Positions 4,352 to 58,119 of a stretch of 64,000 nt of DNA are shown here, in pieces (the first letter of the stretch is position 1; every line of letters begins with the position of its first letter). The stretch lies in sequence record OL656110.1; one strand, written 5' to 3'. The notes below the pieces were generated by a model. The model was not told the DNA's origin and ran no database searches. It saw only the letters and a list, made by a program, of their open reading frames with translations. Position numbers and translations under genes: made by a program. Source of the stretch: Escherichia phage vB_EcoM-RPN242.

Positions 4352-4368
4352 CCAAACCCCATCCACCA

Positions 4369-8424: not shown

Positions 8425-9251
8425 AATACGAAATCATCTTAGACGCTCTCATACAGAGAGCAATACAGAGAGGTAAAATGGATGGCGTTTATCAAGAACG
8501 CCACCATATAATCCCTGTGTGCTTGGGTGGCACTAACCACTTCTCTAATCTTGTATGGTTGACACCAGAAGAACATTATGTCGTACATCACCTACTTTGG
8601 AGAACAAAACCACTCAACCCCGGTATCAGGAAGGCATGGACTGGGATGAACAACATGTCTAGGAACAACAAAGAGTTTGGGGAATTGAGGAGAAATAATT
8701 CCGCCAGAATGAAAGAAGTGATGTCATCTGATGAACAAAAGGAACGTTGTCGTAAGCAATCCAAGAAAAACTCATTGAACCCAGAAGTACAGAAGAAACG
8801 TGCGGATAGCTTGAGAGGTTACACTTGGAATGACGAATCAAGGCGCAGGTTGTCAAAATCCAGGAAAGGGATACCACACTCCGAAGCACACAAAGCCAAT
8901 CTTACCAAATCAGTCACCGAACGGATGAGGCGACCAGAAGAAAGGGAGAGGTATTCTGCTATGTGGCGCCAGAACAATCCCATGAATAACATACAACCTT
9001 GGGAACACCCGACTGTCGTAAAGACGGGTAAATCCCGACAATGGCTCTTGGCTGGTGAATTCTTTGAATGGTGGTATAGTAACGGTGAAGACAAAGTGAA
9101 GAACCGTTATTGTTTAATGTTGAAAGAAACCGGGTTAAGCTCTGTTTGTTCTAAGGCCACAGCTCAAACTTGTATATCTAAATTTCAGAAAGGTTGGATA
9201 CCAAAAGAAGATCCCGCCTGGTTGAAATTTTACGGAGATAATAATGGTTGA
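8421..9251 (+). CDS. HNH homing endonuclease with NUMOD-like motifs
   Basis: HNH core HHIIPVCLGGTNHFSNLVWLTPEEHYVVH; repeated SRKG.PHSE-type motifs; paralogous to ORF 24783-25382; sits immediately upstream of topoisomerase gene. Confidence 0.75.
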   Translation: MKYEIILDALIQRAIQRGKMDGVYQERHHIIPVCLGGTNHFSNLVWLTPEEHYVVHHLLWRTKPLNPGIRKAWTGMNNMSRNNKEFGELRRNNSARMKEVMSSDEQKERCRKQSKKNSLNPEVQKKRADSLRGYTWNDESRRRLSKSRKGIPHSEAHKANLTKSVTERMRRPEERERYSAMWRQNNPMNNIQPWEHPTVVKTGKSRQWLLAGEFFEWWYSNGEDKVKNRYCLMLKETGLSSVCSKATAQTCISKFQKGWIPKEDPAWLKFYGDNNG

Positions 9252-11142
9252 TGTAAACAGAAAATACAAAAAGCTCTCACACATCGAGCATATACTCCTT
9301 CGCCCAGAGCGCCATCTAGGGAGTATCCGTTCTTCTGTCGGGATGGCTTGGGTATATGATCTCAGCAAAGACAAAGTTGTGTTTAAAGACAATTTTGAAT
9401 ATAACCCCGCTCTTATCAAACAGTTTGATGAAATCATCACCAACTGTGTTGACCACAGCAAGACCCCTGAGGGTAAATCCCTGACGGAAATCACCGTCAC
9501 AGTTTCCCCGATGAACGGTCAAATCATCGTTGCTGACAACGGGGGTATCCCTGTGGTCAAACATGAATCTGGTATGTGGTTGCCAGAAATGTTATTTTCA
9601 GAATTGTTTGCGGGATCGAACTTCAACGACGAAGACGAAGAGTACAACAACCAGAAGTCCGGTGGTCAGAATGGCGAAGGGGCGTCCCTCGTCAACGTGT
9701 TCTCCAAATGGTTCCGCATCACGACTAATGACGGCAAGAAGTCTTATACTCAGACGTTTGAAGACAACATGAGCAAGAAATCTAACCCAGTCATCAGCAA
9801 CGTGAACAGTCCCGGCACATCCATCGCCTGGATCCCTGACTATGCTCGCCTGGGCGTCAAAGGACTTGACCAGAACAACCTGCTGATGATCTATCGCCGC
9901 GCGTTTGAAGTGGCTGCGTGTAACCCGCGCCTGAAGATTGTTCTCAACGGGAAGCAAATCCGGATTGACCGCTTTGGCCACTTCGTTGATTACTTCCATG
10001 CTGGTTCGGCTGTTGACGAAACCGGGGATTGGTCTGTTGCTGTAGCCCCTTCATCCGGTACGTTCATGCACGCATCATACGTGAACTCTATTGCCACCCA
10101 CATCGGTGGTCCTCACGTTGATTATGTTGCCGACCAGATCGTGGCAGCGATTCGTCCCCAGCTGGTGAAGAAGTTCAAGACCGAGCTGAAACCTGCCATG
10201 ATCAAGAACCACATGTCCTTGTTCATCGCTGCCGACATCAACAACCCGCGCTTTGACAGCCAGACCAAGGAGCGCATGACCACTCCTGTCAGCCAGTTCG
10301 GTACGTCGTACAAGCCCAGTGATAAACTGATCCGCAAGGCGCTTGAGTTCGTTACGGCTGGTCTGAGCAAAGAACTGGCTTCCCTGCGCAATGAGCAGGA
10401 CGATGCTGAGTTTGAAAAGGCCAAGAAGGACATCAGCAAGCGGGATTATCGTGAGATTGAGAAGTATTACCCGGCGACCGCCCGTGGTGACCGCAGCGGA
10501 TGCTCCCTGTTGCTGACAGAGGGTGATAGTGCCTCCAATCCTATCCTGAATGCCCGCGACACCAAGAAGATCGGGTTGTTCCCGCTTCGTGGTAAGTTCA
10601 TCAACTGCCTGAACGCCCCGCGCTCAAAGGTGATGAACAATGAAGAGTTCAAGAACCTGTGTACGATCCACGGCGGCGCAGTGCCAGGCCAGCCCCTTGA
10701 TATCACCCGTTACCCACAGACTGTTGTGGCTACCGATGCGGACGATGATGGCATCCACATCCGTGGGTTGTTGATCACCCTGTATTGCACCTACTGGCCG
10801 GAGTACGTCCGTCAGGGCAGGCTGAAGCTCCTGCGCACCCCTTACATGCGTGTGTGGTGTGGTAAGGTGATGCATGAGTTCATGAACAACGCAGAGTATG
10901 AGGAGTTCCTGAAGACGCCTGATGCCAAGAAGATCACGAAGAAGAAATATCTGAAAGGTCTGGGTGGTAACAGCACTGAAGACTTCAAACGTATTCTAAA
11001 CAACCTGGATGCGTATACTACGACGGTCACGCTGGACGATGGCTATCAACAGTCACTGAAGAATGGCTTCGGTGATGAGGCCGCCGATTACCGCAAAACC
11101 TGGTTTAGCGATGTTTGCCTGTTTGAAACTGAGGATGAATAA
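9244..11142 (+). CDS. 39: DNA topoisomerase II large subunit (GyrB-like, fused gp39+gp60 equivalent)
   Basis: 632 aa; GHKL ATPase and TOPRIM-region motifs LLLTEGDSA, PRFDSQTKER; SD GGAGA. Confidence 0.9.
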   Translation: MVDVNRKYKKLSHIEHILLRPERHLGSIRSSVGMAWVYDLSKDKVVFKDNFEYNPALIKQFDEIITNCVDHSKTPEGKSLTEITVTVSPMNGQIIVADNGGIPVVKHESGMWLPEMLFSELFAGSNFNDEDEEYNNQKSGGQNGEGASLVNVFSKWFRITTNDGKKSYTQTFEDNMSKKSNPVISNVNSPGTSIAWIPDYARLGVKGLDQNNLLMIYRRAFEVAACNPRLKIVLNGKQIRIDRFGHFVDYFHAGSAVDETGDWSVAVAPSSGTFMHASYVNSIATHIGGPHVDYVADQIVAAIRPQLVKKFKTELKPAMIKNHMSLFIAADINNPRFDSQTKERMTTPVSQFGTSYKPSDKLIRKALEFVTAGLSKELASLRNEQDDAEFEKAKKDISKRDYREIEKYYPATARGDRSGCSLLLTEGDSASNPILNARDTKKIGLFPLRGKFINCLNAPRSKVMNNEEFKNLCTIHGGAVPGQPLDITRYPQTVVATDADDDGIHIRGLLITLYCTYWPEYVRQGRLKLLRTPYMRVWCGKVMHEFMNNAEYEEFLKTPDAKKITKKKYLKGLGGNSTEDFKRILNNLDAYTTTVTLDDGYQQSLKNGFGDEAADYRKTWFSDVCLFETEDE

Positions 11143-11143
11143 G

Positions 11144-12475
11144 ATGGTTGCTAAGAGCATTACTGTAACGGACTTTGTCAACACTGACCATAAGCAGTTT
11201 TCTGTGGTCAACAGCATCCGCCAAATCCCTCAGCTGATTGACAGCCTCAAGCCAAGCCAGCGCAAGATCCTTTTCGCTGCACTTGAGTACAATAAGGAGG
11301 AGATTGTTGACCGCCTTGGTATGTTCGCCGCCGCTCGCACCAACTACAAGTCTGGTGGTGAGAACATGAGCGGCACTATCGTGAACATGGCTCAGGGGTT
11401 CCCAGGCACGAACAACATCCCGTACTTTGACCGCGATGGCCAGTTTGGTTCTATCATGGGGCGTGACGCGTCGTCGGCACGTTACATTTCGGTGGCTGTA
11501 TCTGATGTTATCCGCAAGATCTTCCGCAAGGAGGATGAGGGTATCTTGGAATACAACTACCTTGGTGAAGAAAGGCTGGAGCCGAAGTTCTTTCTGCCCA
11601 TCCTACCCATGTTCCTGGTGAATGGGATCAATGGTATCGGCACCGGATATTCCACCGACACCCCGTGTCATTGCGTTAAGTCCGTGCTGAATGCCCTGAG
11701 AGCGCTTCTCCGTGGCGAAGACCCGAAAGACTTAAAACCGTACTGGAACGGCTTCAAAGGAGAGACAGGCTATACTGAGGAAGGAAGAGCATACAGTCGT
11801 GGTATCTTCCGTCGGGTCAATGCCACGACCCTGCATATCACCGAAGTCCCAGTGGGTTGGTTCGCCAAAACCTATGAGACCAAGGTGTTGCTGCCTCTGT
11901 ACAAGGCAGGTATCCTCACCGAGTACGCCAACGACACGACGGAAGATGGCTGGGATATCACGGTTGTGTTTAAGCGCGGCGAACTCTCTAAGCTGAGTGA
12001 CGAGCAGGTTGAGCAGATGTTCAAGCTGTATTCAGCCACCAAGCCTGTTTGGACGGCCTGGGATGAAGACGGTGTTATTCATCGTTATTCTGGTTGGCGG
12101 GACATGTTGCTGCCGTTCTTCAACTATCGCCTGTCCCGGTATGAAGACCGTCGCCAGTATCTGTTGAAGGACATGGCAGACAGGATCCGCAAGCTGGGTG
12201 ACCGGGCGGTGTTCATTGAATGGGCGACGCGTGTTGATCTCCGCCAAAAGATTGACGTGCTGAAGTCTCTGTTCATGCAGGACTACCCGGACTTTGGTGG
12301 TGATCTTGACGAGTTGTTCAAGATGCCTCTGTCGTCTATTACTCTGGACGCCCGTGAGCGCCTACTCAAGCAGATAGAGAACCTTGAAGCACAGCACAAG
12401 GAATTAAGTAAGAAAGAGGACATCGATCTTTACACTGATGACCTTGATGACCTTGAAAAGGCTCTTGGTCTTTAA
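11144..12475 (+). CDS. 52: DNA topoisomerase II medium subunit (GyrA-like, gp52)
   Basis: ATG 11144 after SD GAGGA, 1 nt after gp39 stop; GyrA-like motifs GQFGS, ARYI, GIGTGYSTD. Confidence 0.85.
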   Translation: MVAKSITVTDFVNTDHKQFSVVNSIRQIPQLIDSLKPSQRKILFAALEYNKEEIVDRLGMFAAARTNYKSGGENMSGTIVNMAQGFPGTNNIPYFDRDGQFGSIMGRDASSARYISVAVSDVIRKIFRKEDEGILEYNYLGEERLEPKFFLPILPMFLVNGINGIGTGYSTDTPCHCVKSVLNALRALLRGEDPKDLKPYWNGFKGETGYTEEGRAYSRGIFRRVNATTLHITEVPVGWFAKTYETKVLLPLYKAGILTEYANDTTEDGWDITVVFKRGELSKLSDEQVEQMFKLYSATKPVWTAWDEDGVIHRYSGWRDMLLPFFNYRLSRYEDRRQYLLKDMADRIRKLGDRAVFIEWATRVDLRQKIDVLKSLFMQDYPDFGGDLDELFKMPLSSITLDARERLLKQIENLEAQHKELSKKEDIDLYTDDLDDLEKALGL

Positions 12476-12479
12476 CATA

Positions 12480-12495
12480 GGAGGGTTCGCCCTCC
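12480..12495 (+). promoter_or_regulatory. UUCG-tetraloop hairpin whose 3' arm is complementary to the downstream SD
   Basis: GGAGGG-TTCG-CCCTCC right after gp52 stop; downstream SD GGAGGG (12502-12507) can alternatively pair with CCCTCC. Confidence 0.4.
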
Positions 12496-12514
12496 TCACC
12501 TGGAGGGTTGTGCT

Positions 12515-12802
12515 ATGTTCTATCTCCGTTCTGCAGCACCTGTGGTATTCATCATTTTCCTATTTGATTTCCTGGTTCCTCGCTTTATCAAAGAGGAGGT
12601 GGCGTTTGGTCTCTATGGTGAGACGGAAGACCCAGAGGTCGATGAATATTACCCAATGTGCGCCCTGAAAGATATCGAGGAAGGGGAAGATGTTGCAATG
12701 GTCGGCACTATGCGTTCTTTCAACCTGTTCGGGATTGCACTCTTTCCGAAACTGGTTGGTGAACTGCGCCCCTACGTTCCTGAAGCCACTGTAGATGGTT
12801 GA
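12515..12802 (+). CDS. hypothetical protein with N-terminal hydrophobic segment
   Basis: 95-aa ORF, SD GGAGGG. Confidence 0.5.
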   Translation: MFYLRSAAPVVFIIFLFDFLVPRFIKEEVAFGLYGETEDPEVDEYYPMCALKDIEEGEDVAMVGTMRSFNLFGIALFPKLVGELRPYVPEATVDG

Positions 12803-18490: not shown

Positions 18491-19101
18491 GGTAAGAGCA
18501 GTCCATCATCCCGCTCCGTTGGGGCGGGTTTAATCTCCTTCCGCATCTGTTCCTTCAGCACCCTGACACGTTCGGCATGTCGGCGATCTTGCATCTCCAT
18601 ATCCCGTTTCTTTTTCGACTTCAGCTCAAACTGTTTACGAACATCCGGATCTTCACCCGGAACAAGATGCTCTTCGGTCCATATAATGAACTTCCAGTTC
18701 TTCTTGGCACACAGTTCGCGGGTGGCCTCCCACTTGGCAGAGTTGACCAACCAGGTTCGCATCGCATTGTTGAATGTCGACTCCTTCATGTTCGGAGTCT
18801 TCTTCGGCTGCTTGATCTGGTCTTTGGGCTTGATCTCAATGAGGGTGACCTGTAGTTCCTCTTGCCCTTCGCGGCGCGTCCAGACCTTGAGGTCCATGAA
18901 GTAACGATGGGTGCGCCCGTCGACTGGGGAAATGTAAGGGATTACGGTCTCCTCACTAGACCACTTCACTATCGCGGAGTTCATATCACAGAACTTGAAA
19001 GCCACCAACTCCAGCGAAGAGCGGAAGATGATGTTATTCACATTCCCCTGATACTTCTTGGGATTAACTGGGGTGTACTTCCCCTGAAGATAGTTGCTCA
19101 T
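18487..19101 (-). CDS. head completion protein (T4 gp4-like), putative
   Basis: N-terminal pattern YQGNVNNIIFRSSLEL...VKWSSEETVIPY...DGRTHRYFMD...IEIKP resembles my recollection of the gp4 family; SD AGGA; diverges from the baseplate block as in T4. Confidence 0.55.
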   Translation of the reverse strand: MSNYLQGKYTPVNPKKYQGNVNNIIFRSSLELVAFKFCDMNSAIVKWSSEETVIPYISPVDGRTHRYFMDLKVWTRREGQEELQVTLIEIKPKDQIKQPKKTPNMKESTFNNAMRTWLVNSAKWEATRELCAKKNWKFIIWTEEHLVPGEDPDVRKQFELKSKKKRDMEMQDRRHAERVRVLKEQMRKEIKPAPTERDDGLLLP

Positions 19102-19151
19102 AATCTAGTCCTAAATAGCCATAACACTCTATCTATTTAAGGGCTGAGACC

Positions 19152-20120
19152 ATGGCCGACTTCAAGAAGACAATCGATAAGATCAAGGTTCTGAACACGA
19201 AGGGATTGTCCCAGGCTCAGAAGCAATTGTCTTATCCCCTGGACGTCACTGGGGGTAAGACTTTAGGACACTATGTCCTATTCAACATCAACCGTATCTC
19301 CGGTTCATCTTATGGCAACACGGCTACTCAGACTATCGAGAACCCAATACAGAACCCTCTGGGGAATACTCCTGTGGTCTATGGGTCCAAGTCTGGTTCC
19401 ATCACCAAATATGCATGGGCGCGTCACGTTCGTTCAAACGAGTCTATCGTACTTTGTATGCCCGAGTACATTACAACCAACTATGGTGTTGGCTGGAACG
19501 GTAGCGAGCTGGGGTTGGCTGGTATGGGAGCACAGTTCCTTTCCCGCGCCGCCCAAGACATGACTCAGTTTAAACTGGGTGATGCGCTCAACGTCGGGAA
19601 GGAGATGGGGCGATTCGCTGCCACCAAGGCTATCCAATCTGCGTCGGAGGCTATTCCATTCCTGCCGAGCATTAACGCCCATGACACCCTTGAGTTGTTC
19701 ACAGGCACCATGACCAACCCATATGTGGAGATGATCTTCCAGGGTGTTCGCAACCGTGAGATTCCATTTACATTCAAATTCACGCCGCGATCTCAGAAGG
19801 AAGCCAAGATGGTCCGTGAGATCATCCGCATGTTCAAGATGCACATGTACCCAGAGTACAAGTACAACAAGAATTCCAGCGCGTTTTACTTGCATCCTTC
19901 AACATTCGACATTACGTTCATGGTCAATGGGGGGCGTAACCAGTGGCTGCACCGCATCTCCACTTGTGTACTTTCCAACATGTTCGTCAACGAGACGCCG
20001 GACAGTTCATACGCGGTTCACAAAGATGATGGTATCGTGTCCACGCAGGTTGACATGACCTTCATCGAACTGGAGCCTCTACACAAAGGGCGCTTTGAAA
20101 CCGAAGGCGATAGCTTCTAA
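19152..20120 (+). CDS. baseplate structural protein (position of gp53-like wedge component), putative
   Basis: 322-aa ORF opening a plus-strand block that ends with a tape-measure-like gene; no recognisable motif. Confidence 0.4.
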   Translation: MADFKKTIDKIKVLNTKGLSQAQKQLSYPLDVTGGKTLGHYVLFNINRISGSSYGNTATQTIENPIQNPLGNTPVVYGSKSGSITKYAWARHVRSNESIVLCMPEYITTNYGVGWNGSELGLAGMGAQFLSRAAQDMTQFKLGDALNVGKEMGRFAATKAIQSASEAIPFLPSINAHDTLELFTGTMTNPYVEMIFQGVRNREIPFTFKFTPRSQKEAKMVREIIRMFKMHMYPEYKYNKNSSAFYLHPSTFDITFMVNGGRNQWLHRISTCVLSNMFVNETPDSSYAVHKDDGIVSTQVDMTFIELEPLHKGRFETEGDSF

Positions 20121-22082: not shown

Positions 22083-24029
22083 ATGGCACAGGAAGCAACG
22101 AACAATGATGTTGTCAAAGTTCTAGACAAGATCAAGGCGGAGATGATGCAGCGCAAACAACTCCGTGCTCAGAATGAAACCAACAAACAGCTTGACCGGA
22201 TGAACAAGAATCTGGCCAAGCTGGAATCTGCCACCAAACAGGGCACCAAGGCCGAGTCCAAGCCATTTGAAATCCGTATCCCGACAGTCAATGAGATCGT
22301 CATGGGATTCGCTCGCATGTCTCCGATCTTCACCCGCGACTTCAGCGTATGGATGAAGGATACTGTCGATGTGGGTAACGAAGGCAATCGGGAACTGGAG
22401 AATATCGCAGGCAAGATTGACCGCCTCGGTGAGATCACCCGCATGCCAACAGATGACACGTCCCTGGAGTATCTTAACCTGATCTCAGACCAGCTGAAGT
22501 CTGCCAATGATGACACCCTCAAGCGCATGGACGAGCAGAGTGTGTCTCTGATCCGCGTGGGATCATTCTTGAACATGATCGACGGAGTGATAATCGAGGT
22601 TCGTGACGATGTTGCTGAACTGAAAAAGAACTCCGATGACACCCTTACTCGCTTGTCTAGCATTGAAAACAAGATTGGGCGCACGGGCGGTCATATCGTT
22701 GGAGTGCTGACACGCATCTTTGATGAAGACCAGAAGTGGCGTGAGAAGGACGAGATGCGCCGTGGGGAAACCGACAAAGAAACGGGTGGTCATCCTCAGG
22801 CGGGTTCTGTTATACCCAAAGACGATGACCAGAAAGACGATTCCTCCGGTATCGGGGCTGCTGTGGCGGCCATGCTTGGCCTGAATGCACTGAAGGGCTT
22901 CTTGCTCAAGCCGTTCAAGATCATCGGTGGTGTTGTCGGGACTTTCCTCGGCATGTTTTCCAAGCTGGGAGAAGGTATCACCAAACTTCTGGGTCCATTT
23001 GGGAAGGTGTTCAAGTTCCTGAAAGTCGGCCCACTGGCTCTCCTGTCTATGATCTGGGACTTCGGTAAAGGCTTCATTGATGCGAAGGAGATCCTGGGTA
23101 AAGGTGCTGTCACGATAGTTGACCGAGTACGGGCGGGGATATCAGAACTGGTTGGTGGATTTGGTGATCTATTTGACTGGGTGTCCAAGATCTTTGGCTT
23201 TGATACCAAGGCGGGAGAAACCCTGCGCAAATACACCCTCATGATCACTGAGGCTCCCGCTCGTTGGCTGAATGGTATTATCGACTGGATTAGCAACGAC
23301 TTGTTTGCAGGGATCGGGAGAGACACGTCTCTTACTGATATCCCTGGCAAGTTAGCAGACAACCTACAGTCCGAGTTGACAAAGCTGGTAGACTGGATCA
23401 CAGGGGGTATCAGTAGTGTGATCGACGATGGCATGGGTGTGGCCAACAAGGTCATTGACGATATCAAGAAGGGATTTGCCGAAAATGTGAAGAAACCTTT
23501 CTTCAACATGCTGAACACAATCACCAATGCGATGTTCGATATCGTTGACAAGTTCGTCAGCATCATCCCTGACGCTCTGGGTGGACAGGCTGCGAAGCAG
23601 AAGATGGATGAGGCTCGCCAGTCTATGCTGATTGACACTGATGAGAATCCGTCTCCTAATGTGACAGAGACCCAGCAGCCACAGACGCCAGCACAACCGA
23701 ACATCGATCCACAAACGCTGACTCCAATACCTTCTGGTGCGTCTTCGGATGACAAGAATATGACTAATGACCGCACCTCTCAGCTGAAAGCTGCGTATGG
23801 TTCTATCGGGGGCGGTACTCTGGGCGGGGCCATGCCATCACAAGGTAGGGCGCTGTCTAATATTGAGCAAGTACAAGGCGGCTATTCACCGCCTCCAGCC
23901 AGCGTCGTGATGCCAGTACAGCAGAATGTGGATGCTTCTAAGAGGATCAACACGACCAATAACTTCAACAGCTCATATCTTGAGCCTGAGAACAAAACAG
24001 ATAATTCCCGCATCCTGTGGGAATGGTAA
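22083..24029 (+). CDS. tail length tape-measure/baseplate hub protein (gp29-like), putative
   Basis: 648 aa; N-terminal coiled-coil-like region, central Gly-rich hydrophobic stretch (GIGAAVAAMLGLNALKGFLL...), Pro/Gln-rich C-terminal region. Confidence 0.5.
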   Translation: MAQEATNNDVVKVLDKIKAEMMQRKQLRAQNETNKQLDRMNKNLAKLESATKQGTKAESKPFEIRIPTVNEIVMGFARMSPIFTRDFSVWMKDTVDVGNEGNRELENIAGKIDRLGEITRMPTDDTSLEYLNLISDQLKSANDDTLKRMDEQSVSLIRVGSFLNMIDGVIIEVRDDVAELKKNSDDTLTRLSSIENKIGRTGGHIVGVLTRIFDEDQKWREKDEMRRGETDKETGGHPQAGSVIPKDDDQKDDSSGIGAAVAAMLGLNALKGFLLKPFKIIGGVVGTFLGMFSKLGEGITKLLGPFGKVFKFLKVGPLALLSMIWDFGKGFIDAKEILGKGAVTIVDRVRAGISELVGGFGDLFDWVSKIFGFDTKAGETLRKYTLMITEAPARWLNGIIDWISNDLFAGIGRDTSLTDIPGKLADNLQSELTKLVDWITGGISSVIDDGMGVANKVIDDIKKGFAENVKKPFFNMLNTITNAMFDIVDKFVSIIPDALGGQAAKQKMDEARQSMLIDTDENPSPNVTETQQPQTPAQPNIDPQTLTPIPSGASSDDKNMTNDRTSQLKAAYGSIGGGTLGGAMPSQGRALSNIEQVQGGYSPPPASVVMPVQQNVDASKRINTTNNFNSSYLEPENKTDNSRILWEW

Positions 24030-24695
24030 TCAGATTCCGTGGGCTTGTATTAGCTCACGGAGTCTCTGTTTTGAATATGTGGTATCCTCATCCGGAACCA
24101 CAGCATTCGTCTTCCTGAGCAAGAACGCCTCTGAGTTCCAGTAGATGTCATCACGCAGAATCGTATCGTATAGATGAATGAAACCAACGATCTTGTTCAG
24201 ACCGACAAGGAACCAAATCGGGAACTTCTTGACGATGATGTCTGTCAGCAACGGTGGATGACCTGTACCCGTCCCCTTGATGTACTCAATGAAGGTGCAG
24301 TTGCGCTCCCTTATGGCAGGGATCATTTCCCGTTCGAACTCCTCAAGGAAGTTATATGTGAAGTTCTCGTACAACTTACGGTATTCATCATAATTGGCCT
24401 GAGCCTGGCGTGTAAGCAATGTCGTCACCCAGGTCTTGGGTGATTTGATGAAGTTGGCAATGATGTAGTTCTCTACCACTTCACCCTGTGATGACTCGAA
24501 TCGACGGGCAAGGCGAGCAAACTGTTTGCACACGGCCTCCTTCGCCAAGAACGTCTCGAACTTGTAATTCATCGGTCCATACAAGCTGTAATCGAAGTCC
24601 TTAGTGGTGAAGTGCAGCTTGATCGCCATGAAGACACAGTAAACGTTGAACGCCCGCTCGAACTGCATTTTTTCCCAATCGGTATACTCACGCAT
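24030..24695 (-). CDS. helicase loader (gp59-like), putative
   Basis: 221 aa (T4 gp59 is ~217 aa); N-terminal VYCVFMAIKLHF...FARLARRF pattern resembles recalled gp59; strong SD GAGGAA. Confidence 0.4.
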   Translation of the reverse strand: MREYTDWEKMQFERAFNVYCVFMAIKLHFTTKDFDYSLYGPMNYKFETFLAKEAVCKQFARLARRFESSQGEVVENYIIANFIKSPKTWVTTLLTRQAQANYDEYRKLYENFTYNFLEEFEREMIPAIRERNCTFIEYIKGTGTGHPPLLTDIIVKKFPIWFLVGLNKIVGFIHLYDTILRDDIYWNSEAFLLRKTNAVVPDEDTTYSKQRLRELIQAHGI

Positions 24696-26074: not shown

Positions 26075-27498
26075 TATGCAGACTCCAGCAGGAATACAAT
26101 GTTTTCGATGTATGCTTTCTGAATCGCATAGACTTCATCCAGTGTGTTGGCCACTTTCTTGTCAATGCGGACTTCTACAAGGCGAGGTAGGAACAAAGAC
26201 TTCATCGCATCATCTGTCTTATCCTGTACGCCATTGGAGAGCACTGCGGCGATCTTGCCAATGTAGTCGCCCTGGTTCTCCCACATATGGCGTCTCAGCT
26301 CATCTGAGATCCCTGATACACCAACAACAAGCAAGCCATCGGAAGTTTTACAAATCAGTGAGCCAAAAGTCTTGGCGTGTTTACCCTTCTTGTCGGCCTC
26401 GTTGAAGCCCACGATTTCAAGGTCACACTCAACCTCCATCTTCAGCTTCAGACCTTCAGAAGAAGTCCCATCTTCCCAAGGCATGTCGGCGGCCTTACAT
26501 ATCGTGCCTTCTTCTTTGCGAGCCAGCGCGTCTTTGAAGTGGTCGACGGCTTCGGCAAATGAGTGAACAACGCGGGTTTCTTGAACCTGAACCAGACCGT
26601 CGTCTTCATCAAACAGTTGCTGGATAATATCGAAGCGGCGCTCATACGGGGTGTCCACGCGCTGGGCGTTGAACCAGTTGTCGTACGGGATAACATCCCA
26701 CACCCGGTAGATCACCCGATAACGATCTTCCAGGGGTTCTCCTGTCTGAATCACGCTGTTGAGTTTACCGTTACCGACAGCACGAGGCAGGATGGTATTC
26801 GACTTGAGGTCAACAACGAGAAGTTCACCATGGAACACACTCTCACCAATCCCCGCATCGTAGATCAGGTCTTTGAACACCAGTGAAAGGTTATCAACCG
26901 AACCACCTGCGATAAGGGAACCGGAGCGAGAGCGAATCTCAGGCTCTTTATTGTACCGACATATGATGTTGGCGAACATACCGTCTGACTTCAGCTGGCT
27001 GTAGACGCCGCGCTTGAAGTCCATCTTCTTCAGCAGGTCAATCGTCATGTTGTCATAACGATGATACGGAAGAATGTTGATCAGGCGTCCAGTGCCTCCG
27101 GCGGCGTTGAATGCAGCGTTGATGCCCTTCTCTGCGATACCCGCCTTGATATCACGGTCTAGGATCATCTGAATGAGTTCGTGGTATTGGGGATCCATCT
27201 TCAGGGCGACAGAGGCCAACAGGGCATCAGCCTTTTGGCCACCGACAAGGCGCTGTGCCATCTGGTCGAGGACGTCATAGACTTCGCTGATGTCATCAGT
27301 CTTCTCACGGACGAGCATGCGAGGGTACGCGCTGAGCTTCAACTCAGTCCGATAGAACGACGTCATTGGGTCATAGACATATTGCAGGAAGTCTGCCAAG
27401 TCTGGGTTGTTCTTGAATGCTTCGGTCAGCACAGCTTTCTTCGCATTGCTGCCTTTGGTTTCGCGAAGTCGGTGGACTATTTCAAGGATAGGGATCAT
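26074..27498 (-). CDS. 30: ATP-dependent DNA ligase (gp30-like)
   Basis: 474 aa; adenylation motif I LKSDGMFANI (KxDG); N-terminus resembles T4 ligase; SD GGAGG. Confidence 0.85.
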   Translation of the reverse strand: MIPILEIVHRLRETKGSNAKKAVLTEAFKNNPDLADFLQYVYDPMTSFYRTELKLSAYPRMLVREKTDDISEVYDVLDQMAQRLVGGQKADALLASVALKMDPQYHELIQMILDRDIKAGIAEKGINAAFNAAGGTGRLINILPYHRYDNMTIDLLKKMDFKRGVYSQLKSDGMFANIICRYNKEPEIRSRSGSLIAGGSVDNLSLVFKDLIYDAGIGESVFHGELLVVDLKSNTILPRAVGNGKLNSVIQTGEPLEDRYRVIYRVWDVIPYDNWFNAQRVDTPYERRFDIIQQLFDEDDGLVQVQETRVVHSFAEAVDHFKDALARKEEGTICKAADMPWEDGTSSEGLKLKMEVECDLEIVGFNEADKKGKHAKTFGSLICKTSDGLLVVGVSGISDELRRHMWENQGDYIGKIAAVLSNGVQDKTDDAMKSLFLPRLVEVRIDKKVANTLDEVYAIQKAYIENIVFLLESA

Positions 27499-27505
27499 GT
27501 GGTGC

Positions 27506-27542
27506 CTCCAGGGTTATATGTGCTGCTATTATAACCCTGGAG
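27506..27542 (-). promoter_or_regulatory. 13-bp perfect hairpin sequestering the ligase SD
   Basis: CTCCAGGGTTATA / TATAACCCTGGAG arms with 11-nt loop; CTCC arm is the complement of the ligase SD GGAG on the mRNA. Confidence 0.45.
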
Positions 27543-27621
27543 ACTTCAATATATTATCAGGGAACGGATCCCAGCACTCAGCGACGGTATACAGAACAAC
27601 CAGTTGATAAACTTTATCATG

Positions 27622-58087: not shown

Positions 58088-58095
58088 TATTTATA
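58088..58095 (-). promoter_or_regulatory. T4-type late promoter (TATAAATA)
   Basis: plus-strand TATTTATA = minus-strand TATAAATA, 24 nt upstream of ATG 58064. Confidence 0.45.
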
Positions 58096-58119
58096 AGCCC
58101 CCGAAGGGGCTTTCGATGA

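What the first reader, a model, noticed from the sequence alone, without database searches (positions are those of the whole stretch)
12480..12517. Alternative pairing hairpin/anti-SD switch after gp52
The 3' arm CCCTCC of a UUCG-loop hairpin can pair either with the upstream GGAGGG (12480-12485) or with the identical downstream SD GGAGGG (12502-12507) of the next gene. Mutually exclusive structures would couple translation of ORF 12515 to the state of the upstream hairpin.
Basis: seen in the sequence. Interest (0 to 1): 0.4.

Follow-up and report, generated by a model that had tools for sequence, protein, structure and literature searches.

The report
Conserved hairpin that can mask next gene's ribosome site
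[quoted passage not shown] The evidence points to an ordinary intergenic stem-loop that mildly and passively dampens translation, not a dedicated regulatory switch.

Summary
The layout is: gp52 stop TAA 12473-75; GGAGGG 12480-85; TTCG loop; CCCTCC 12490-95; TCACCT; GGAGGG 12502-07; 7 nt; ATG 12515.

The window is an Agtrevirus-like Ackermannviridae phage. ViennaRNA puts the upstream hairpin (hp1) at about -10 to -11 kcal/mol. The SD-masking hairpin (hp2) is about -13 to -14 kcal/mol.

Comparison of about 25 lineages shows that only hp1 is maintained:
- hp1 shows compensatory substitutions and a paired G/C deletion, and its loop varies freely.
- hp1 is absent from eight sampled lineages.
- hp2 strength is erratic. 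It beats a shuffle null only in Taipeivirus and falls at or below it in Agtrevirus and L066.
- The uncompensated substitutions all fall on the SD side.
- Predicted opening cost of the start region barely differs with hp1 forced (8.4 kcal/mol) or free (9.3 kcal/mol). The free value ranks 7-12 of 60 genes.

There is no U-tract, no promoter, no Rfam hit and no identifiable trigger.

Best reading: hp1 is a dispensable intercistronic stem-loop made of an SD-like and an anti-SD-like strand. It passively attenuates ORF 12515 in this subclade. A regulated switch is possible but unsupported. Interest is low.

The parts
11144..12475 (+). gp52-like DNA topoisomerase II medium subunit gene; stop codon TAA at 12473-12475
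   Evidence: ORF list. Pfam DNA_topoisoIV, E = 8.6e-66. Annotated as topoisomerase II medium subunit in 97-98% identical phages.
12480..12485 (+). hp1 5' arm GGAGGG. It is SD-like and would act as the 'anti-sequestor'. A12479 can add an A:U pair with U12496.
   Evidence: The arm is conserved with compensatory changes in relatives.
12486..12489 (+). hp1 loop UUCG, with a G-C closing pair
   Evidence: Loop sequence and length vary freely in relatives.
12490..12495 (+). Shared C-rich strand CCCUCC. It contains the 16S anti-SD core CCUCC. It is the 3' arm of hp1 and the 5' arm of hp2.
12496..12501 (+). Spacer UCACCU, which forms the loop of hp2
12502..12508 (+). Shine-Dalgarno GGAGGG (12502-07) of ORF 12515, plus U12508, which pairs with G12489 in hp2
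   Evidence: A G-rich SD is present in all relatives, with or without the hairpin.
12474..12480 (+). 5' strand (AACAUAG) of an optional outer helix. It overlaps the stop codon and pairs with 12513-12519.
   Evidence: MFE of the 81-nt and 57-nt contexts. It is not conserved in relatives.
12513..12519 (+). 3' strand (CUAUGUU) of the outer helix; includes the start codon
12515..12802 (+). ORF for a 95-aa predicted membrane protein (phrog_2241). It lies next to gp52 throughout the Ackermannviridae sampled.
12523..12527 (+). UCUCC in codons 3-5, an alternative downstream pairing partner of the SD when hp1 is formed
   Evidence: hp1-forced folds.

Best explanation
hp1 (12480-12495) is a conserved but dispensable intercistronic stem-loop. 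It sits 4 nt after the gp52 stop codon and acts as structural punctuation on the polycistronic topoisomerase mRNA.

Its most likely primary role is inferred, not shown. It would be a barrier to 3'->5' exonucleolytic decay, or an insulator between cistrons, and not a terminator.

Like many hairpins in this genome, its stem is built from a G-rich, SD-like strand and a C-rich, anti-SD-like strand. The C-rich strand can therefore also pair with the real SD 6-9 nt downstream.

In this phage's subclade, three 1-nt deletions and one substitution made the two G-strands identical (GGAGGGUU). The C-strand now partitions between them, and the SD-masking hairpin is slightly favoured.

The expected consequence is passive, constitutive dampening of independent initiation at ORF 12515. 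A terminating ribosome at the gp52 stop codon would reach the hp1 5' arm and push the fold further towards the masked state. That is a side-effect, not a selected sensing mechanism.

Shown: the sequence layout, the energies, conservation of hp1, the variability of hp2, and hairpin loss in relatives. Inferred: the decay-barrier or insulator role, the ribosome effect, and the attenuation in vivo.
For: hp1 is maintained across four genera or lineages, with changes that preserve pairing:
- A:U -> G:C and G:C -> C:G in Taipeivirus.
- A paired G and C deletion (7 -> 6 bp) in the window's subclade.
- An extended 8-bp AGAGGGGU/GCCCCUCU stem in L066.
- Loops vary among UUCG, UGAAUU, UGAAAUU, CAAAA, UUUUG, UAAA and GAAA.

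RNAalifold picks the hp1 core as the consensus structure. No shuffle of 500 reaches the observed covariation for hp1.

The position is fixed at 3-4 nt after the stop codon. No lineage has a U-tract, and the terminator scan does not list it.

The uncompensated substitutions seen all fall on the SD side: GAGGG -> GAGGA (L003, L031, L029), GAGGGG -> AAGGGG (L005) and GGGGGG (L010). None falls in the hp1 arms. The only arm change is a 2-nt bulge insertion in L061 that leaves 6 bp.

hp2 stability equals the shuffle null in the window (0.21) and main Agtrevirus (0.45), and is below it in L066 (0.96). P(hp1) ranges from 0.00 to 0.99 among lineages.

L067 carries a different hairpin straddling the gp52 stop codon, with no SD complementarity.

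G-rich/C-rich tetraloop stems are the house style of this genome, for example at 4368, 7077, 16993, 31710, 54670 and 60893.

The opening cost of this start region is 9.3 kcal/mol, ranking 7-12 of 60 genes. That is elevated but not an outlier.
Against: The decay-barrier or insulator role is inferred from general knowledge of intercistronic stem-loops (REP, puf), not from data. No 3'-end or half-life data exist for these phages.

The hairpin has been lost at least three times inside the clade that carries it, so any role is non-essential.

In Taipeivirus/Serratia, hp2 is far stronger than chance (p 0.002-0.03). The hp1 loop (AAA) pairs with UUU after the SD. In Kuttervirus, the loop (UGAAU) pairs with GUUCA after the SD (p 0.07-0.18).

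One hp2 pair shows G:C / U:G / G:U covariation.

These points hint that masking may be selected in some lineages.
Confidence: 0.5

Rival explanations
1. A genuine bistable translational switch with three parts: anti-sequestor GGAGGG, sequestor CCCUCC and the SD GGAGGG. The sensor would be the ribosome terminating at the gp52 stop. With UAA in the A site, the mRNA channel reaches the hp1 5' arm (P-site +11 = 12480). Each termination event would free CCCUCC to mask the SD. ORF 12515 would then be translated inversely to gp52 traffic, or only on untranslated or newly made mRNA.
For: The two states are near-isoenergetic, with a moderate barrier of 8.3 / 11.1 kcal/mol, so exchange is plausible on the seconds time-scale.

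With 12458-12485 blocked, hp2 dominates and the start-region opening cost rises to 16 kcal/mol.

In every hairpin-bearing lineage, blocking the 5' arm yields an SD-masking helix of -6 to -16 kcal/mol. This is significantly above null in Taipeivirus.

The stop-to-stem spacing is constant at 3-4 nt. There is covariation at hp2 pair 20:41. The window's subclade evolved stepwise towards a stronger hp2 (L035/4HA11 are intermediates).
Against: The balance is not conserved: P(hp1) runs from 0.00 to 0.99.

hp2 is at or below null in Agtrevirus and L066. SD-side changes are uncompensated.

Accessibility with hp1 forced is nearly the same as in the free ensemble. The module is lost repeatedly while the SD is retained.

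Inverse coupling has no obvious biological rationale, given that Miltonvirus couples the same two genes positively through an ATGA overlap.
Confidence: 0.2
2. hp1 has no present function. It would be a nearly neutral relic, for example of an inverted duplication or template switch that copied the SD region. Its complementarity to the SD would then come from descent, not from selection.
For: The 5' arm is a near-copy of the SD in each lineage: GGAGGG(G) vs GAGGG, and GGGGGC vs GAGGGC.

The hairpin behaves as a discrete indel module. L063 looks like Agtrevirus minus the hairpin.

Losses are repeated. The downstream ORF is itself broken in 4HA11 and truncated in EspM4VN.
Against: Pairing is preserved by double substitutions and by a paired deletion over genus-level divergence, while the loop and spacers drift. 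That pattern is not expected for a neutral sequence.
Confidence: 0.15
3. hp1 is a non-canonical transcription terminator, attenuator or pause site that reduces read-through from the topoisomerase genes into the small downstream genes.
For: Most other intergenic hairpins of this genome are A-tract/stem/U-tract terminators of similar stem composition.

The analogous hairpin in L067 is followed by UUUACUU.
Against: hp1 is followed by UCACCU (window), AAACAAG (Kuttervirus), GCCACCU (Taipeivirus) or CACUCUC (L066). None is a U-tract. The terminator scan does not report it.
Confidence: 0.1
4. hp1 and/or the duplicated GGAG motifs are a binding or cleavage site for a protein. Candidates are a RegA/gp43-type translational repressor, a RegB-like GGAG endonuclease or CsrA.
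For: T4 RegB cuts intergenic GGAG in SDs, and secondary structure protects against it. T4 gp43 binds an upstream hairpin plus the RBS (Uzan & Miller 2010, PMC3014915). The window carries two GGA(G) motifs 22 nt apart.
Against: The loop sequence is not conserved. The second GGA is absent from most relatives (GCGAGGG). No such protein was identified here, and RegB homology was not tested.
Confidence: 0.05

Closest known systems
T4 gene e / soc / 49 / I-TevI start-region hairpins (reviewed in Uzan & Miller 2010, PMC3014915)
   Same: A local helix buries the SD and/or AUG of a gene in a phage of the same order (Pantevenvirales) and lowers 30S binding.
   Different: In T4, relief comes from a late promoter inside the 5' strand, so late transcripts lack the inhibitory arm. 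Here there is no promoter in 12440-12515. The inhibitory strand also has a competing upstream partner. Three other genes in this window (starts at 27498, 42847 and 19152) fit the T4 layout much better.
Anti-sequestor / sequestor / SD expression platforms (ermC- and cat-type translational attenuation; translational riboswitches)
   Same: A three-segment architecture in which one strand chooses between an upstream partner and the SD.
   Different: There is no leader peptide with a stalling site, no aptamer and no Rfam match. The upstream ORF is a 443-aa enzyme. The hp1/hp2 balance is not conserved.
Translational coupling through SD-masking structures opened by the upstream ribosome (for example MS2 coat-replicase; my own knowledge)
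   Same: The ribosome finishing the upstream cistron is close enough to remodel the structure around the next SD.
   Different: The geometry here predicts the opposite sign. The ribosome reaches the anti-sequestor, not the sequestor. Miltonvirus achieves classical coupling of the same gene pair with an ATGA overlap.
Intercistronic stem-loop mRNA stabilisers (REP in malE-malF, puf operon hairpins; my own knowledge)
   Same: A GC-rich, short-loop hairpin without a U-tract, immediately after a stop codon inside a polycistronic unit. The pairing is conserved and the loop is not.
   Different: The stem is only 6-8 bp (-10 to -14 kcal/mol). No 3'-end or half-life data exist. It is dispensable in several lineages.
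C(UUCG)G tetraloop hairpins of T4 intergenic regions (Tuerk et al. 1988; from memory)
   Same: A UUCG tetraloop on a GC stem between genes of a T4-related phage.
   Different: The closing pair is G-C, not C-G. The loop is replaced by unrelated 4-7-nt loops in sister genera.

Membership tests
Intrinsic (Rho-independent) terminator | GC-rich stem with a short loop | tested here: met
   A 6-7 bp stem with 5-6 G:C pairs and a 4-nt loop.
Intrinsic (Rho-independent) terminator | U-tract immediately 3' of the stem | tested here: not met
   The stem is followed by TCACCTGG. The scan does not list it. No U-tract occurs in Kuttervirus, Taipeivirus or L066 either.
Extra-stable C(UUCG)G tetraloop hairpin | UUCG loop closed by a C-G pair | tested here: not met
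   The loop is UUCG but the closing pair is G12485-C12490. The loop is not conserved in relatives.
Bistable SD-sequestering RNA switch | Two mutually exclusive helices sharing one strand, one of which contains the SD | tested here: met
   hp1 is 12480-95 and hp2 is 12489-12508.
Bistable SD-sequestering RNA switch | Comparable stabilities and a passable barrier | tested here: met
   -10.9 vs -13.7 kcal/mol. The forced-state ensembles differ by about 0.8 kcal/mol. The saddle lies 8.3 / 11.1 kcal/mol above the two states. This holds in the window's subclade only.
Bistable SD-sequestering RNA switch | Both alternative helices supported by conservation or covariation across relatives | tested here: inconclusive
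   hp1 is supported. For hp2, 87% of cells pair, one covarying pair is seen, and 24 of 500 shuffles reach the observed score. hp2 exceeds a shuffle null only in Taipeivirus, and it is weak in Agtrevirus and L066.
Bistable SD-sequestering RNA switch | The two states differ substantially in start-region accessibility | tested here: not met
   The opening cost is 8.4 kcal/mol with hp1 forced and 9.3 kcal/mol for the free ensemble.
Bistable SD-sequestering RNA switch | An identifiable trigger (ligand, stalled ribosome, protein, temperature, alternative 5' end) | not testable with these tools
   No aptamer or Rfam hit, and no internal promoter. The ribosome-at-stop effect is inference only.
T4 gene e-type start-region hairpin | A promoter inside the 5' strand, so that a shorter transcript escapes masking | tested here: not met
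   No sigma-70-like site and no TATAAATA in 12440-12515.
Known RNA family (Rfam 15) | A match at or near the gathering score | tested here: not met
   No hit in the whole window at gathering threshold. Only noise (E > 2) appears in 12300-12700.
Stop/start-overlap translational coupling | Overlapping or abutting stop and start codons | tested here: not met
   The window has a 39-nt spacer. An ATGA overlap is present only in Miltonvirus.

The most novel reading that the evidence does not exclude
The hairpin would be a ribosome-termination sensor. When a ribosome stops at the end of gp52 it would melt the SD-like decoy arm and hand the anti-SD strand over to the real SD. This would give 'inverse translational coupling' between the topoisomerase subunit and the adjacent small membrane protein. 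It would be selected in Taipeivirus and in this Agtrevirus subclade.
Probability: 0.15. Interest if true: 0.5.

Novelty: new member of a known kind. Interest (0 to 1): 0.2.

Why it matters
If the passive-attenuator reading is right, this is routine mRNA architecture. It shows how any G-rich/C-rich intergenic stem placed next to an SD will interfere with it. It also shows how a few 1-nt indels can shift the balance.

Its practical value is limited. Annotators and phage engineers should expect ORF 12515 homologues to be expressed differently in hairpin-bearing and hairpin-less Ackermannviridae.

Only if the termination-sensing reading were confirmed would it add a new wiring, negative coupling, to the repertoire of intercistronic control. 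It might also hint at a functional link between gp52 and the conserved neighbouring membrane protein.

Tried and rejected
1. Intrinsic terminator. Rejected: no lineage has a U-tract.

2. Internal promoter giving a shorter, unmasked or masked transcript (the T4 gene e model). Rejected: no sigma-70-like site and no TATAAATA here. Kuttervirus has TATAAAT over the stop codon, but the window has TTTAACAT.

3. Stop-codon read-through fusing gp52 to the ORF. The spacer is in-frame and stop-free in the 39- and 42-nt versions. However, 41- and 43-nt variants exist (L025, L010, L028, L033), and CRW-SP2 has an in-frame TGA. Rejected.

4. Known RNA family. None found.

5. Special role for the UUCG loop. 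Rejected: the loop is not conserved and the closing pair is the wrong one.

6. Conserved outer helix AACAUAG/CUAUGUU. Rejected: it is not conserved in relatives.

7. The start region as an extreme outlier for structure. Rejected: it ranks 7-12 of 60, and 5 of 60 genes have a 6-nt or longer SD complement within 30 nt upstream.

8. Metagenome scan for more lineages. It yielded only 2 loci. The protein-database route was productive.

9. Literature on Ackermannviridae transcript maps. Nothing usable was found.

10. CsrA and RegB ideas. Considered from memory but not tested. The relatives lack the second GGA.

Full report
**Context**

The window is an Ackermannviridae genome segment. It is 97-98% identical over 3 kb to Escherichia phages PC3, PH4, AV101, A221 and LHE287, which are Agtrevirus-like. 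The order of features is:
- gp39-like topoisomerase II large subunit, 9244-11142;
- gp52-like medium subunit, 11144-12475 (Pfam DNA_topoisoIV);
- a 39-nt spacer;
- a 95-aa ORF, 12515-12802, annotated 'putative membrane protein' (phrog_2241, no Pfam).

**Observation**

One search confirms every element at the stated coordinates:

TAA(12473-75) CATA GGAGGG(12480-85) TTCG CCCTCC(12490-95) TCACCT GGAGGG(12502-07) TTGTGCT ATG(12515).

- The two G-strands are an 8-nt direct repeat, GGAGGGTT.
- The hairpin pattern occurs once in 64 kb, against 0.00 expected.

**Energetics (ViennaRNA)**

| Quantity | Value |
|---|---|
| hp1 free energy | -9.9 to -10.9 kcal/mol |
| hp2 (GCCCUCC/GGAGGGU) free energy | -13.1 to -13.7 kcal/mol |
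| Ensemble, hp1 forced / hp2 forced | -35.8 / -36.6 kcal/mol |
| P(hp1), 121-nt context | about 0.2 |
| P(hp1), 57-nt context | about 0.01 |
| Saddle above hp1 / above hp2 | 8.3 / 11.1 kcal/mol |

- In an 81-nt context the MFE is hp2 plus an outer helix, AACAUAG(12474-80)/CUAUGUU(12513-19), which also buries the AUG.
- In a -40..+90 context the MFE flips to hp1, with the SD paired to downstream coding sequence.
- A direct refolding path by strand exchange gives the saddle values above. My own estimate is that interconversion would take seconds.
- The segment as a whole is not unusually structured (z = -1.06).

**Comparative anatomy**

I collected the gp52-to-ORF junction from about 40 loci representing about 25 distinct variants. 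The sources were IMG/VR, GenBank phages, a metagenome scan, and contigs encoding divergent homologues of the ORF.

Hairpin-bearing lineages:

| Lineage | Junction sequence |
|---|---|
| Agtrevirus/Limestonevirus | TAA CATC GGAGGGG TTCG CCCCTCC TCACCTGC GAGGG TTGTGCT ATG |
| Kuttervirus | TAA ATCY GGAGGG TGAA(A)TT CCCTCC AAACAAGC RAGGGG TTCACC ATG |
| Taipeivirus/Serratia IME250 | TAA TACA GGGGGC CAAAA/TTTTG/TAAA GCCCCC GCCACCTGC GAGGGC TTTAAT ATG |
| Uncultured lineage L066 | TAA AAT AGAGGGGT GAAA GCCCCTCT CACTCTCT GGAGGA TTCGCC ATG |

- hp1 always starts 3-4 nt after the stop codon.
- Its pairing is kept through A:U -> G:C and G:C -> C:G double changes.
- Its loop is free in both sequence and length.
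- No lineage has a U-tract after the stem.

The window's subclade differs from the Agtrevirus consensus in four ways:
- a paired deletion of one G and one C in the two arms (7 -> 6 bp);
- a C -> A change that adds an A:U pair;
- a C deletion turning GCGAGGG into GGAGGG.

L035 and phage 4HA11 are intermediates. They keep the 7-bp hp1 but already carry the GGAGGG SD.

RNAalifold returns the hp1 core as the consensus structure. Pair counting gives 0 of 500 shuffles reaching the hp1 covariation score. In that MAFFT alignment the Taipeivirus 3' arm is shifted by one column, so the count understates hp1 pairing.

The hairpin is absent from eight sampled lineages:
- CRW-SP2, L060, L062 and L064 (19-22-nt spacers);
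- L068 (14 nt);
- L069 (25 nt, retaining the CCACCTGC spacer motif);
- L063, which reads like an Agtrevirus spacer with the hairpin cleanly excised;
- Miltonvirus, where the two genes overlap by ATGA.

L067 has a different hairpin (GCCGGG GAUAA CCCGGC) straddling the stop codon, with no SD complementarity.

A rough NJ tree of gp52 C-termini places three hairpin-less lineages inside the hairpin-bearing clade. This implies repeated loss, but the tree rests on a short alignment.

**Is the SD-masking helix selected?**

Evidence in favour:
- When the 5' arm is blocked, every hairpin-bearing lineage forms a helix between the loop plus 3' arm and the SD region, at -6 to -16 kcal/mol.
- In Taipeivirus the helix is AAAGCCC-C-CGC / GCG-A-GGGCUUU.
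- In Kuttervirus it is UGAAU-UCCCUC / GAGGG-GUUCA. Lineage-specific loop bases match the bases after the SD.
- One hp2 pair covaries as G:C / U:G / G:U.

Evidence against:
- I ran a shuffle null that fixes the arm and the SD core and shuffles the loop and spacers. The fraction of shuffles at least as stable as the real sequence:

| Lineage | Fraction |
|---|---|
| Taipeivirus/Serratia | 0.002-0.03 |
| Kuttervirus | 0.07-0.18 |
| Window | 0.21 |
| Main Agtrevirus | 0.45 |
| L066 | 0.96 |

- P(hp1) ranges from 0.00 to 0.99 among lineages, and even within Kuttervirus.
- The uncompensated substitutions fall on the SD side (GAGGA, AAGGGG, GGGGGG), never in the hp1 arms. The one arm change is a bulge insertion in L061 that keeps 6 bp.

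**Leverage on translation**

- The predicted cost of opening 12501-12517 is 9.3 kcal/mol in the free ensemble.
- With hp1 forced it is 8.4 kcal/mol, because the SD then pairs with UCUCC (12523-27) and other downstream segments.
- With 12458-12485 occluded, as by a terminating ribosome, it rises to 16.2 kcal/mol.
- Among 60 gene starts mapped from the LHE287 annotation, this start region ranks 7th to 12th (median 5-6 kcal/mol).
- 5 of 60 genes have a 6-nt or longer SD complement within 30 nt upstream.
- Three other genes have far stronger SD-burying hairpins (z about -3.9, -3.8 and -2.2).

**Genome style**

This genome is rich in intergenic tetraloop hairpins whose stems are G-rich on one side and C-rich on the other. 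Examples are at 4368, 7077, 16993, 31710, 54670, 60893 and 61326. Most have A- and U-tracts and look like terminators. Complementarity of such a stem to any nearby SD is expected from composition alone.

**Interpretation**

The conserved object is hp1. The alternative pairing is real and strong in this particular phage. Across the family, however, it behaves like a by-product of stem composition, possibly co-opted in Taipeivirus.

I therefore favour, at about 0.5, a dispensable intercistronic stem-loop. I infer that it acts as a decay barrier or insulator at the end of the topoisomerase message. In this subclade it also passively dampens initiation at ORF 12515.

The rival readings are:
- a true termination-sensing switch, about 0.2;
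- a neutral relic, about 0.15;
- a non-canonical terminator or pause site, about 0.1;
- a protein operator, about 0.05.

**Comparison with what is known**

- The T4 gene e/soc/49/I-TevI hairpins (PMC3014915) differ because they are relieved by an internal late promoter. None exists here.
- erm/cat-type attenuators and riboswitch platforms differ because this element has no leader peptide and no aptamer. Rfam gives nothing.
- Membership as an intrinsic terminator fails on the U-tract.
- Membership as a C(UUCG)G hairpin fails on the closing pair.

**Verdict**

The element is a new but ordinary member of a known kind, and interest is low (0.2).

Noticed in passing
window 27485-27560 (- strand), start of the DNA ligase gene at 27498: A 15-bp perfect hairpin, GUCUCCAGGGUUAUA / UAUAACCCUGGAGGC (-24.6 kcal/mol, z = -3.94), buries the SD GGAGG. 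Its 5' arm and loop carry TTATAATAG. This is a much stronger candidate for a T4 gene e-type SD-masking structure than the finding examined here.
   Followed up: partly
window 42835-42905 (- strand), gene start 42847; and 19095-19165 (+), gene start 19152: Two further SD/AUG-burying hairpins (-19.0 kcal/mol, z = -3.79; and -15.9 kcal/mol, z = -2.2). Their 5' arms contain CATAAATAGCC and CTAAATAGCC, which resemble the T4 late-promoter box TATAAATA. The motif itself is not enriched in the window.
   Followed up: partly
window 11142-11144 vs loci L029, L031, L032: In the window, gp39 and gp52 abut. Relatives carry a homing-endonuclease gene inserted between them: HNH in SKML-39 and Yersinia CAU_YEP3, and GIY-YIG in pSal-SNUABM-02.
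   Followed up: no
L058 (Serratia phage 2050H1, Miltonvirus) 370-380: The gp52 stop and the start of the membrane-protein homologue overlap as ATGA. The gene pair is conserved next to gp52 across all Ackermannviridae lineages sampled, and here it is translationally coupled. This hints at a functional link between topoisomerase II and this small protein.
   Followed up: partly
window 12515-12802 and homologues P0042, P0058, P0073, P0079: The 95-aa protein (phrog_2241; invariant PRF..E.VAF and M.G.MRSFNLFG..L.PKL.G.L.PY motifs) has distant homologues. They occur in Vibrio, Salinivibrio and Pseudomonas phages and in Pseudomonas, Halomonas and Morganella genomes. Its function is unknown. The ORF is frameshifted in phage 4HA11 and truncated in EspM4VN.
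   Followed up: partly
window 12578-12583 (CCTCGC, the Pro-Arg codons of the conserved PRF motif): In relatives with the SD GCGAGGG, the conserved CCCTCGC about 60 nt into the ORF is an exact complement of the SD. This is a possible long-range pairing, or a coincidence of a conserved Pro-Arg codon pair.
   Followed up: no
window 24032-24065 (+): The strongest simple hairpin in the window: a 14-bp stem at -23 kcal/mol. It lies at the convergent junction between the + strand gene ending at 24029 and the - strand helicase-loader gene (24030-24695). It is probably a bidirectional terminator.
   Followed up: no
window 58088-58112 (- strand): The terminator hairpin AAGCCCC UUCG GGGGCUU overlaps by one base a perfect T4-type late promoter box, TATAAATA, which follows it. 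This lies upstream of the gene starting at about 58064. It is the canonical terminator-promoter punctuation, in contrast to the hairpin at 12480.
   Followed up: no
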